DNA of 64,000 nucleotides from Candidatus Multivoradales bacterium (GTDB taxonomy: Bacteria > Acidobacteriota > Thermoanaerobaculia > Multivoradales > JAHEKO01), in NCBI GenBank assembly GCA_965223855.1, contig CBDCXM010000009.1:1510206-1574205 (forward strand), written 5' to 3'. The notes below the pieces were generated by a model. That model worked only from the letters and a program-made list of their open reading frames with translations. It was not told the DNA's origin and ran no database searches. This document shows, one piece after another, positions 52,383 to 52,446 of this stretch. Position numbers and translations under genes: made by a program. Within the stretch, counting starts at the first letter, position 1. The number at the start of each line of letters is the position of its first letter.

Positions 52383-52446
52383 TCTTCTCTCTCTCTCTCT
52401 CTCTCTCTCTCTCTCTCTCTCTCTCTCTCTCTCTCTCTCTCTCTCT
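52383..52446. repeat. Perfect (CT)30 dinucleotide microsatellite
   Basis: 60-bp uninterrupted CT run (52387-52446). Immediately upstream of both the BI-1 gene (minus strand) and the VWA gene (plus strand). Confidence 0.95.

What the first reader, a model, noticed from the sequence alone, without database searches (positions are those of the whole stretch)
52383..52446. Perfect (CT)30 microsatellite in a 70%-GC genome, shared by two divergent promoters
Sixty uninterrupted CT dinucleotides lie between the start of the BI-1-family membrane protein gene (minus strand, about 50 nt away) and the start of the VWA gene (plus strand, ATG at 52449 or GTG at 52593). A repeat this long and perfect is prone to slipped-strand length variation and to H-DNA (polypurine/polypyrimidine mirror repeat) formation. 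It could act as a phase-variation or supercoiling-sensitive switch for one or both genes.
Basis: seen in the sequence. Interest (0 to 1): 0.55.

Follow-up and report, generated by a model that had tools for sequence, protein, structure and literature searches.

The report
Long TC microsatellite between divergent genes
A perfect 62-base TC repeat, extremely unusual for a GC-rich bacterium, sits in the non-coding spacer between a membrane-protein gene and a secreted VWA-protein gene; it is real in the sequence and should be unstable in length, but no available data show that it regulates either gene.

Summary
The tract is (TC)31, 62 nt, perfect, at 52386..52447, inside a 66-nt polypyrimidine run. 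The window is 67% GC. The next-longest dinucleotide run in 64 kb is 4 units, and about 0.95 Mb of related loci has nothing longer than (CG)7.

The tract is non-coding. It lies 53 nt from the BI-1-family gene start (52332, minus strand) and 145 nt from the VWA gene start (GTG 52593). Homologue alignment and the database entry support that GTG start, not ATG 52449. Both genes are monocistronic and divergent.

No promoter could be placed with confidence. The only -10-like box in the spacer (TGTTAGTTT) faces BI-1 and lies outside the tract, so a hif-type -35/-10 spacer switch is excluded.

The organism is a singleton in every collection searched. No orthologous locus and no reads exist here, so length variation and conservation could not be tested.

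One unexplained hint, found post hoc, is that the VWA leader is unusually complementary to (UC)n (top ~0.2% of windows). This recalls the transcribed hmw repeat of Haemophilus.

Verdict: a probably genuine, intrinsically hypermutable microsatellite in regulatory DNA. A regulatory role is plausible but unproven.

The parts
52386..52447 (.). Perfect (TC)31 / (GA)31 microsatellite, 62 bp, non-coding
   Evidence: TRF gives period 2, 31 copies, 100% matches. Confirmed by regex and by the sequence.
52382..52447 (+). Uninterrupted 66-nt polypyrimidine (plus strand) / polypurine (minus strand) mirror-repeat tract, an H-DNA-capable motif by sequence criteria
   Evidence: The other pure R/Y runs of 15 nt or more in the window are 16-19 nt.
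51628..52332 (-). BI-1/YccA-family (Bax1-I) membrane protein gene, 234 aa, GTG start preceded by the SD-like AGAGAGGAG (52346..52338). Monocistronic: convergent with the plus-strand gene 50487..51620.
   Evidence: Pfam PF01027 7.7e-25. The identical 234-aa database entry P0031 confirms the start. GC3 gene map.
52593..54236 (+). Acidobacterial-type VWA-domain protein gene, 547 aa, signal-peptide-like N-terminus. Monocistronic: convergent with the FG-GAP gene 54331..55956(-).
   Evidence: TIGR03436 3.4e-35. The identical 547-aa entry P0001. Alignment A1 shows that homologues start at the signal peptide, so the 48-aa extension from ATG 52449 is not conserved.
52362..52370 (-). Extended -10-like element TGTTAGTTT facing the BI-1 gene, 15 nt from the tract edge. 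It is the only TAnnnT in the whole 260-bp spacer on either strand. Candidate BI-1 promoter (inferred, weak).
   Evidence: PWM scan best score 5.4 bits. Regex searches. BI-1 homologues carry TAnnnT boxes at comparable positions.
52448..52592 (+). 145-nt segment between the tract and the VWA start. It is purine-rich (59%) and contains (UC)n-pairable runs GGGGAGAG (52466-52473), GAGGGAG (52476-52482) and GGGGGAGA (52557-52564). It has no recognisable promoter element.
   Evidence: 23 nt lie in pairable runs, top 0.25% of 145-nt windows. Duplex with (UC)31 is -46.8 kcal/mol against a background of -17.6 +/- 8.2, with 2 of 877 windows as good. This was a post-hoc test.

Best explanation
The tract is most likely a genuine, intrinsically length-unstable microsatellite embedded in the only regulatory DNA available to two divergent single-gene units. 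If it does anything, it most probably tunes expression in a graded, heritable and reversible way (a rheostat), mainly of the secreted VWA protein gene. It is unlikely to act as a classical on/off promoter-spacer switch.

Shown:
- The tract is perfect, non-coding and unique in the window.
- It lies 15 nt upstream of the only -10-like box, which faces BI-1, so it occupies the -35/upstream zone of that candidate promoter.
- It lies 145 nt upstream of the VWA start codon.
- The intervening VWA leader is unusually complementary to (UC)n.

Inferred:
(a) Slipped-strand mispairing will change the unit number at high frequency. This follows from established knowledge of simple-sequence repeats.
(b) Each unit change moves whatever lies on the two sides by 2 bp, about 69 degrees of helical phase. 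Alternatively, if the tract is transcribed into the VWA 5' leader, each unit change alters the length of a (UC)n arm that can pair with the purine runs, as in the Haemophilus hmw1A leader.
(c) The resulting expression differences are heritable and reversible.

My probabilities:
- The tract is real in the genome: about 0.85.
- Given that it is real, it is length-polymorphic in the population: about 0.9.
- It has a measurable effect on expression of at least one gene: about 0.45.
- It is maintained by selection as a contingency locus: about 0.25.
For: - The tract is perfect and its length is far beyond chance.
- It is non-coding, because the VWA start is at GTG 52593 and the BI-1 start is at 52332.
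- Both flanking genes are monocistronic and divergent.
- The VWA protein has a signal-peptide-like N-terminus and belongs to TIGR03436. This is a secreted, adhesion-type domain protein, the class of gene that simple-sequence contingency loci usually control.
- Long repeats 100-150 bp upstream of adhesin genes have precedents in H. influenzae: (TGAAAGA)38 lies 104 bp upstream of hmw2A, and T49 lies 122 bp upstream of a YadA-like adhesin gene (PMC2651432).
- In hmw1A the pyrimidine-rich repeat is transcribed and pairs with a downstream G-rich region (PMC12721329).
- In this window the leader's complementarity to (UC)n is in the top ~0.2% of windows by two measures.
- There is no compositional discontinuity across the tract, and the neighbouring genes are intact. 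Known long-read bias works against GA-rich repeats rather than creating them (PMC12758392). All three points argue against an artefact.
Against: - There is no evidence of length variation: no reads, and the proteins are singletons on one 3.2-Mb contig.
- There is no conservation. No orthologous locus exists in GTDB representative genomes, JGI metagenomes or the 5.8-billion-protein collection. The nearest homologues have other neighbours and no repeat.
- No promoter was found for the VWA gene on either side of the tract, so it is unknown whether the tract is transcribed.
- Whole-leader RNA folds are no more stable than dinucleotide shuffles (z = +2.9, +0.9, +1.7), and there is no Rfam match.
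- The complementarity test was post hoc.
- No other simple-sequence repeat occurs in the 64 kb, whereas organisms that use contingency loci usually have several.
- First-stage selection of the oddest features favours one-off accidents.
Confidence: 0.4

Rival explanations
1. A neutral or slightly deleterious accident. A short pyrimidine seed recently expanded by replication slippage in a spacer that tolerates insertions. The tract is length-unstable but has no regulatory role and will decay or be deleted.
For: - The tract is absent from every available relative, and the gene adjacency itself is not conserved.
- There is only one such tract in 64 kb.
- It has sharp boundaries with no degenerate units, which fits a recent origin.
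- No promoter element overlaps it.
- Short GA/CT-type seeds exist nearby, for example CTCCTCTCT at 52338-52346. Purine runs of 13-14 nt lie upstream of BI-1 in two Thermoanaerobaculia homologues.
Against: - Bacterial genomes are generally depleted of long 1-4-nt repeats, and none occurs in about 0.95 Mb of related sequence. Expansion to 31 perfect units is therefore a very rare event without some maintaining force.
- The tract sits exactly in the regulatory spacer of a secreted-protein gene.
- The adjacent leader is unusually complementary to it.
Confidence: 0.33
2. An H-DNA or supercoiling-sensitive structural element. Divergent transcription loads the spacer with negative supercoils, and the (TC)n/(GA)n mirror repeat flips into an intramolecular triplex. 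This absorbs about six superhelical turns and exposes a single strand, which couples or insulates the two promoters.
For: - The tract is a pure homopurine/homopyrimidine mirror repeat of 62-66 bp.
- (GA)16 formed H-y DNA in an E. coli plasmid when supercoiling was raised and the pH was acidic, and H-r DNA formed on transcription induction (review PMC11667243).
- The two genes diverge from the spacer, which is the topology that produces negative supercoiling according to the twin-domain model (established knowledge).
Against: - In-vivo formation in bacteria required non-physiological conditions.
- No natural bacterial promoter is known to me to be controlled in this way.
- Promoters could not be located, so co-transcription is unproven.
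- H-DNA motifs stall polymerases and are mutagenic, so they are expected to be selected against.
- This explanation is not exclusive of the best explanation.
Confidence: 0.12
3. An assembly or base-calling artefact. The tract, or its exact length, is a consensus error at a low-complexity site of a long-read metagenome assembly, or it marks a mis-join.
For: - The source is a single 3.2-Mb contig seen once, probably a long-read MAG. Read support cannot be inspected.
- Low-complexity tracts are error-prone, so the unit count may be off by a few.
- In the viral-contig scan, 25 of 121 (TC)20-or-longer tracts lay within 100 nt of the ends of the fetched stretches. These were not checked against true contig ends, so artefact-like terminal tracts may exist in public assemblies.
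Against: - The tract is internal, flanked on both sides by intact genes with the same codon-position GC pattern.
- The tetranucleotide signature is continuous across it: r = 0.969, within the window's range of 0.965-0.984.
- Both start regions are intact.
- Documented long-read bias is a loss of coverage at GA-rich repeats, not their creation.
- A mis-join at the repeat would still require real copies of the repeat.
Confidence: 0.12
4. A classical hifA/hifB-type switch, in which the dinucleotide tract forms the spacer between the -35 and -10 boxes of overlapping divergent promoters, so that unit changes turn both genes on or off.
For: A dinucleotide repeat lies between divergently transcribed genes, as in H. 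influenzae hifA/hifB with (TA)9-11 (PMC2651432).
Against: - The tract is 62 bp, more than three times any functional -35/-10 spacer.
- The only -10-like box lies 15 nt outside the tract.
- Because the tract is homogeneous, changing the unit number leaves the sequence at the -35 position of that box unchanged.
Confidence: 0.02

Closest known systems
Haemophilus influenzae hmw1A/hmw2A upstream heptanucleotide repeats (transcribed SSR in the 5'-UTR; expression inversely proportional to repeat number)
   Same: A long, pyrimidine-rich simple repeat lies about 100-150 nt upstream of the start codon of a secreted adhesin-type gene. It is followed by a G/purine-rich stretch able to pair with the repeat as RNA.
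   Different: - The unit is 2 nt here, not 7.
- It is not known whether this tract is transcribed.
- No promoter was found upstream of it.
- No RNase III evidence exists.
- The organism is an environmental, probably acidobacterial MAG, not a host-adapted pathogen.
- The complementarity was found post hoc.
H. influenzae hifA/hifB (TA)9-11 divergent-promoter switch
   Same: A dinucleotide repeat in the spacer between two divergently transcribed genes.
   Different: - There the repeat is the -35/-10 spacer of overlapping promoters. Here the 62-bp tract cannot be a spacer, and the only -10-like box is outside it.
- TA repeats can melt or form cruciforms. TC repeats cannot, but they can form triplexes.
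H-DNA-forming (GA)n/(TC)n tracts studied in E. coli plasmids and in eukaryotic promoters
   Same: The sequence class is identical (a pure GA/TC mirror repeat), and the length is about twice the (GA)16 shown to form H-y DNA in E. coli.
   Different: Those are engineered inserts or eukaryotic elements. A native chromosomal bacterial example with a demonstrated role is not known to me. Formation in vivo required raised supercoiling and acidic pH.
Mycoplasma gallisepticum vlhA (GAA)n upstream repeat (from memory, not checked here)
   Same: A homopurine/homopyrimidine simple repeat upstream of the promoter of a surface-protein gene, where repeat number governs transcription.
   Different: That repeat has a trinucleotide unit and a narrow permissive number (12). 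It occurs in a multigene family of a host-adapted, low-GC organism. None of this was tested for the present locus.

Membership tests
SSR-mediated transcriptional phase variation (contingency locus) | Perfect simple-sequence tract above the operational length cut-off (6 or more dinucleotide units in PhasomeIt) | tested here: met
   31 perfect units. The cut-off comes from PMC6321876.
SSR-mediated transcriptional phase variation (contingency locus) | [quoted passage not shown] | tested here: inconclusive
   The tract is intergenic, 53 nt and 145 nt from the two start codons. No promoter could be placed with confidence. The only -10-like box is 15 nt outside the tract.
SSR-mediated transcriptional phase variation (contingency locus) | Repeat-number polymorphism within a population or between strains | not testable with these tools
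   No reads are available. The proteins are singletons on one contig. No close relative exists in the genome, metagenome or protein collections.
SSR-mediated transcriptional phase variation (contingency locus) | Reversible, heritable change in expression that tracks repeat number | not testable with these tools
   This needs reporter fusions or single-cell expression data.
hifA/hifB-type divergent-promoter dinucleotide switch | The repeat constitutes the spacer between the -35 and -10 hexamers (about 16-19 bp in total) | tested here: not met
   The tract is 62 bp, and the sole -10-like element TAGTTT (52367..52362) lies outside it.
H-DNA (intramolecular triplex) motif | Uninterrupted homopurine/homopyrimidine tract with mirror symmetry, of sufficient length | tested here: met
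   66-nt pure pyrimidine run, of which 62 nt is a (TC)n mirror repeat. (GA)16 sufficed in an E. coli plasmid.
H-DNA (intramolecular triplex) motif | Actual triplex formation under physiological supercoiling and pH in the cell | not testable with these tools
   This requires chemical or nuclease probing.
hmw-type transcribed SSR 5'-UTR element | The repeat is part of the mRNA 5'-UTR | tested here: inconclusive
   No TAnnnT, ECF-like or sigma-54-like element occurs on the plus strand between 52050 and 52600. The transcription start is unknown.
hmw-type transcribed SSR 5'-UTR element | Repeat units pair with a downstream G-rich region to form a long hairpin | tested here: inconclusive
   The leader's complementarity to (UC)n is in the top ~0.2% of windows. 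However, the test was post hoc and the whole-leader MFE is not better than shuffles.
Bax1-I / BI-1 / YccA family (left gene) | Match to Pfam PF01027 above the gathering score over the full domain | tested here: met
   88.3 bits against a cut-off of 34.1, covering profile positions 2-207 of 207. The YccA equivalog NF007765 is far below its cut-off (29 against 353), so only family-level membership is supported.
Acidobacterial-type VWA protein, TIGR03436 (right gene) | Match above the curated cut-off | tested here: met
   122.1 bits against a cut-off of 81.25.

The most novel reading that the evidence does not exclude
A free-living, probably acidobacterial organism uses a 31-unit TC tract as a true contingency element. 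The tract is transcribed into the leader of a secreted VWA adhesin-like gene, where it pairs with purine-rich leader segments in the manner of hmw. Slippage-driven changes in unit number then give heritable, graded variation in surface-protein output. This would extend simple-sequence phase variation well beyond host-adapted pathogens, and it may be among the longest dinucleotide tracts seen in a bacterial regulatory region (a ranking I did not check).
Probability: 0.15. Interest if true: 0.6.

Novelty: new member of a known kind. Interest (0 to 1): 0.38.

Why it matters
Simple-sequence contingency loci are known almost entirely from host-adapted pathogens. Long repeats of 1-4-nt units are generally scarce in free-living, GC-rich bacteria. 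A functional (TC)31 in an environmental Acidobacteriota-like genome would show that hypermutable bet-hedging of surface proteins also operates in soil or sediment bacteria. It would also provide a natural bacterial H-DNA motif to study. If the tract is instead a neutral accident or an assembly error, it is a curiosity and a useful caution for MAG quality control at low-complexity sites.

Tried and rejected
1. Exact-protein look-ups for both flanking genes, using several start choices and the database's own copy. All returned 'not on record', so the source contig and its reads could not be reached.

2. GTDB representative genomes searched with BI-1. This gave 80 loci with a best identity of 68-70%. 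None has a VWA neighbour or a TC/GA repeat.

3. JGI metagenome contigs. The VWA query found nothing. The BI-1 query reached at most about 72% identity, with no repeat.

4. The 5.8-billion-protein collection. The best non-self hit is 38% for VWA and 75% for BI-1. Their contigs show different neighbours and ordinary spacers.

5. Coding explanations.
- ATG 52449 as the VWA start was rejected by the alignment with homologues.
- The 282-aa minus-strand ORF 51617..52465 that runs through the repeat was rejected as spurious, because it overlaps BI-1 in another frame and does not pass the codon-position GC filter.
- The frame entering the repeat from upstream has no start codon.

6. Structured RNA or a riboswitch. 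There is no Rfam match, and leader folds are no better than shuffles.

7. Promoter prediction. The consensus scan, my own PWM, and regex searches for -10, ECF-like and sigma-54-like elements gave nothing convincing.

8. Mobile-element origin. No flanking direct or inverted repeats were found.

9. Chimeric join. The tetranucleotide signature is continuous across the tract.

10. Viral-contig scan for (TC)20 as a baseline. The hits are dominated by Mb-scale giant-virus genomes, so the scan is not a useful prokaryotic baseline.

11. The paper on intrastrand triplex motifs in bacteria (PMC4666352) concerns a different G/C-rich motif and is not applicable.

12. The Mrazek et al. paper on simple-sequence repeats in prokaryotes is not held in the library.

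Full report
OBSERVATION

The tract is real. Tandem Repeats Finder reports one period-2 array in the whole window: 31.0 copies, 100% matches and no indels, at 52386..52447. Direct reading and a regex confirm (TC)31 = 62 nt, embedded in a 66-nt uninterrupted polypyrimidine run at 52382..52447.

The coordinates are off by 1-3 nt, and the window is 67.2% GC rather than 70%.

The tract is an extreme outlier:
- The next-longest dinucleotide run in the 64 kb is 4 units.
- A first-order Markov expectation for (TC)31 in the window is about 8e-29.
- In 166 related loci totalling 949 kb (mean GC 64%), the longest dinucleotide run is (CG)7.

ANATOMY

Left of the tract, on the minus strand, is a 234-aa Bax1-I/BI-1-family membrane protein gene at 51628..52332 (Pfam PF01027, 7.7e-25). 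The match to the YccA equivalog model is far below its cut-off, so only family membership is claimed. Its GTG start at 52332 is preceded by AGAGAGGAG and agrees with the identical 234-aa database entry P0031.

Right of the tract, on the plus strand, is a TIGR03436 'acidobact_VWFA' protein gene (3.4e-35). The database copy P0001 is 547 aa, which corresponds to the GTG start at 52593. Alignment with nine homologues shows that they begin with a short basic stretch plus a hydrophobic signal-peptide-like segment aligned to that start. The 48-aa extension from ATG 52449 has no counterpart in seven homologues and no credible match in the two that have N-terminal extensions of their own.

The tract is therefore non-coding. 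The frame running into it from upstream has no start codon. The 282-aa minus-strand ORF that crosses it overlaps BI-1 in another frame and does not pass the codon-position GC filter.

The codon-position GC map shows that BI-1 is convergent with a plus-strand gene ending at 51620, and that the VWA gene is convergent with an FG-GAP gene at 54331..55956 (minus strand). Both flanking genes are thus monocistronic units diverging from a single 260-bp spacer. The layout is:

BI-1 start 52332 | 53 nt | (TC)31 | 145 nt | VWA start 52593

PROMOTERS

- The consensus scan finds no sigma-70-like site in 52200..52750.
- My PWM scan gives at best 5.4 bits, for an extended -10-like TGTTAGTTT (52370..52362, minus strand) facing BI-1. 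Scores of 8 or more occur 0.37 times per kb per strand in the window, so this is weak.
- It is nevertheless the only TAnnnT in the spacer on either strand, and BI-1 homologues carry TAnnnT boxes at similar distances from their start codons.
- On the plus strand there is no TAnnnT, ECF-like or sigma-54-like element anywhere between 52050 and 52600. The two VWA homologues examined do have clear -10-like boxes close to their start codons.

'Shared by two divergent promoters' is therefore unverified.

The geometry does exclude one mechanism. A 62-bp tract cannot be a -35/-10 spacer. The candidate -10 box lies 15 nt outside the tract, so changing the unit number leaves the sequence at its -35 position unchanged (still GAGAGA). 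The classical hifA/hifB mechanism (PMC2651432) does not apply.

COMPARATIVE EVIDENCE

Every route to a related locus failed to find one.
- Exact look-ups of both proteins, including the database's own copy, are 'not on record'.
- Both proteins are singleton clusters on one contig of 3,226,005 bp.
- In GTDB representative genomes the best BI-1 match is 68-70% identical. None of the 80 loci has a VWA neighbour or a TC/GA repeat.
- JGI metagenomes gave nothing for VWA and at most about 72% identity for BI-1.
- In the 5.8-billion-protein collection the nearest VWA is 38% identical and the nearest BI-1 is 75%. Their contigs show other neighbours (DsbD-like, FG-GAP, rhodanese, FMN reductase) and ordinary spacers of 48-248 bp.

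The repeat is therefore not conserved in anything available. Because no genus-level relative exists in these collections, this says little about function. The best VWA hits and the TIGR03436 family suggest Acidobacteriota, possibly Thermoanaerobaculia. This is an inference.

IS IT AN ARTEFACT?

I cannot see the reads. Several points argue against an artefact:
- The tract is internal to a Mb-scale contig.
- It is flanked by intact genes with identical codon-position GC patterns.
- The tetranucleotide signature is continuous across it (r = 0.969, against 0.965-0.984 at other split points).
- There are no flanking repeats suggesting an insertion.
- The documented long-read bias is loss of GA-rich repeats, not their creation (PMC12758392).

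The exact unit count could still be off by a few. I put the probability that the tract is real at about 0.85.

WHAT THE SEQUENCE CAN DO

By established knowledge, a perfect 31-unit dinucleotide array is prone to slipped-strand mispairing. It is five times the operational cut-off (6 units) used to flag potentially phase-variable dinucleotide tracts (PMC6321876).

It is also a textbook H-DNA motif: a pure homopurine/homopyrimidine mirror repeat, about twice the (GA)16 that formed H-y DNA in an E. coli plasmid. That formation, however, required raised supercoiling and acidic pH (PMC11667243).

It cannot form a cruciform or Z-DNA, because it is neither self-complementary nor an alternating purine-pyrimidine sequence. 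This follows from the sequence itself.

AN UNEXPECTED HINT

The 145 nt between the tract and the VWA start contains GGGGAGAG, GAGGGAG and GGGGGAGA. Each could pair with (UC)n as RNA, with G-U pairs allowed.
- 23 nt lie in such runs, which places the segment in the top 0.25% of all 145-nt windows on both strands of the window.
- The best duplex with (UC)31 is -46.8 kcal/mol, against a background of -17.6 +/- 8.2. Only 2 of 877 windows are as good.
- Adding (UC)31 to the leader lowers the fold energy by 23.8 kcal/mol, against 2.7 +/- 3.1 for 250 control windows, none of which reaches the observed value.

This parallels the H. influenzae hmw1A leader. There, a transcribed pyrimidine-rich repeat pairs with a downstream G-rich region, and expression falls as the repeat number rises (PMC12721329). 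Long repeats 100-150 bp upstream of adhesin genes are also documented there.

Caveats:
- I saw the pattern before testing it.
- No promoter is known upstream of the tract.
- The whole-leader fold is not more stable than dinucleotide shuffles (z = +2.9).
- There is no Rfam family match.

VERDICT

The anatomy and the intrinsic physical propensities are right. The hif-style switch is excluded. Actual variation, H-DNA formation and regulatory consequences remain untested and, with these data, untestable.

My ranking of explanations:
- Genuine hypermutable microsatellite that probably modulates expression in a graded way, mainly of the VWA gene: 0.40.
- Neutral recent expansion: 0.33.
- H-DNA or supercoil element, not exclusive of the first: 0.12.
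- Artefact: 0.12.
- hif-type switch: 0.02.

It is a new member of a known kind, namely an intergenic simple-sequence repeat and a putative contingency locus. It is notable for its length, for the TC unit, and for occurring in a GC-rich environmental bacterium.

Noticed in passing
window 30795..30965 (+): Two adjacent tRNA-like elements with shortened anticodon loops. ARAGORN calls 30892..30965 'tRNA-???' with a 2-nt anticodon because the loop is 6 nt, and Rfam's tRNA model scores 38 bits. The element just upstream (about 30822..30886, ending in CCA) has acceptor and T arms but is called by neither tool, matching only the ends of the tmRNA model and, weakly, YrlA (26 bits against a cut-off of 69). 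No Ro60 or RtcB gene was found among the six neighbouring genes scanned. These could be tRNA mimics, pseudogenes or consensus indels.
   Followed up: partly
window 48516..50405 (+): Three consecutive small-to-medium genes in the same frame, separated by stop codons. The first is a RebB ('killing trait', R-body) domain protein (1.3e-14). The third (388 aa, no Pfam match) ends in a histone-H1-like Lys/Ala-rich tail (KKAAKKAARKTAKKAAKKAK...), encoded by the 12-nt tandem repeat at 50299..50378.
   Followed up: partly
window 48873..50936 (-): A 687-aa ATG ORF with no Pfam match appears to be a spurious antisense ORF. It lies opposite the plus-strand genes 48516..51620, which show the genome's typical codon-position GC pattern. 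This illustrates how long shadow ORFs arise at this GC content.
   Followed up: yes
window 31451..32551 (+) and 57120..58217 (-): Two SPFH/Band 7 domain proteins about 25 kb apart (4.9e-35 and 7.6e-36). The second lies about 3 kb downstream of the end of the VWA gene. A large PKD/Ig-like surface protein gene is at 42468..45062.
   Followed up: no
L001 and L013 (Thermoanaerobaculia BI-1 loci), within 200 nt upstream of the BI-1 start: Purine runs of 13-14 nt (AAGAAGAAGAGAAA and GAAGAGAAGAAGG) lie upstream of the BI-1 gene in two of the closer homologues, the second directly abutting a -10-like box. These could be the kind of seed from which a GA/TC array expands, or they could be chance.
   Followed up: no
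L201 5956..6020, L224 8510..8551, L209 4131..4198 (IMG/VR contigs): Long internal GA/TC tracts occur in GC-rich, phage-like contigs. L201 has (GA)32 and L224 has (TC)21, each in a spacer between divergently oriented ORFs. L209 has (TC)34 sitting as the 'loop' between the arms of a long inverted repeat with AT-rich inner flanks. This suggests that such tracts recur in divergent regulatory spacers of other genomes.
   Followed up: partly
window 23391..23470: A 42-nt unit in 1.9 tandem copies with 81% matches, the highest-scoring tandem repeat in the window after the TC tract. It lies inside the long ORFs 23294..25036(+) and 23286..24041(-) listed. Nearby polypurine/polypyrimidine runs of 16-19 nt are at 22729..22744 and 23129..23147.
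   Followed up: no
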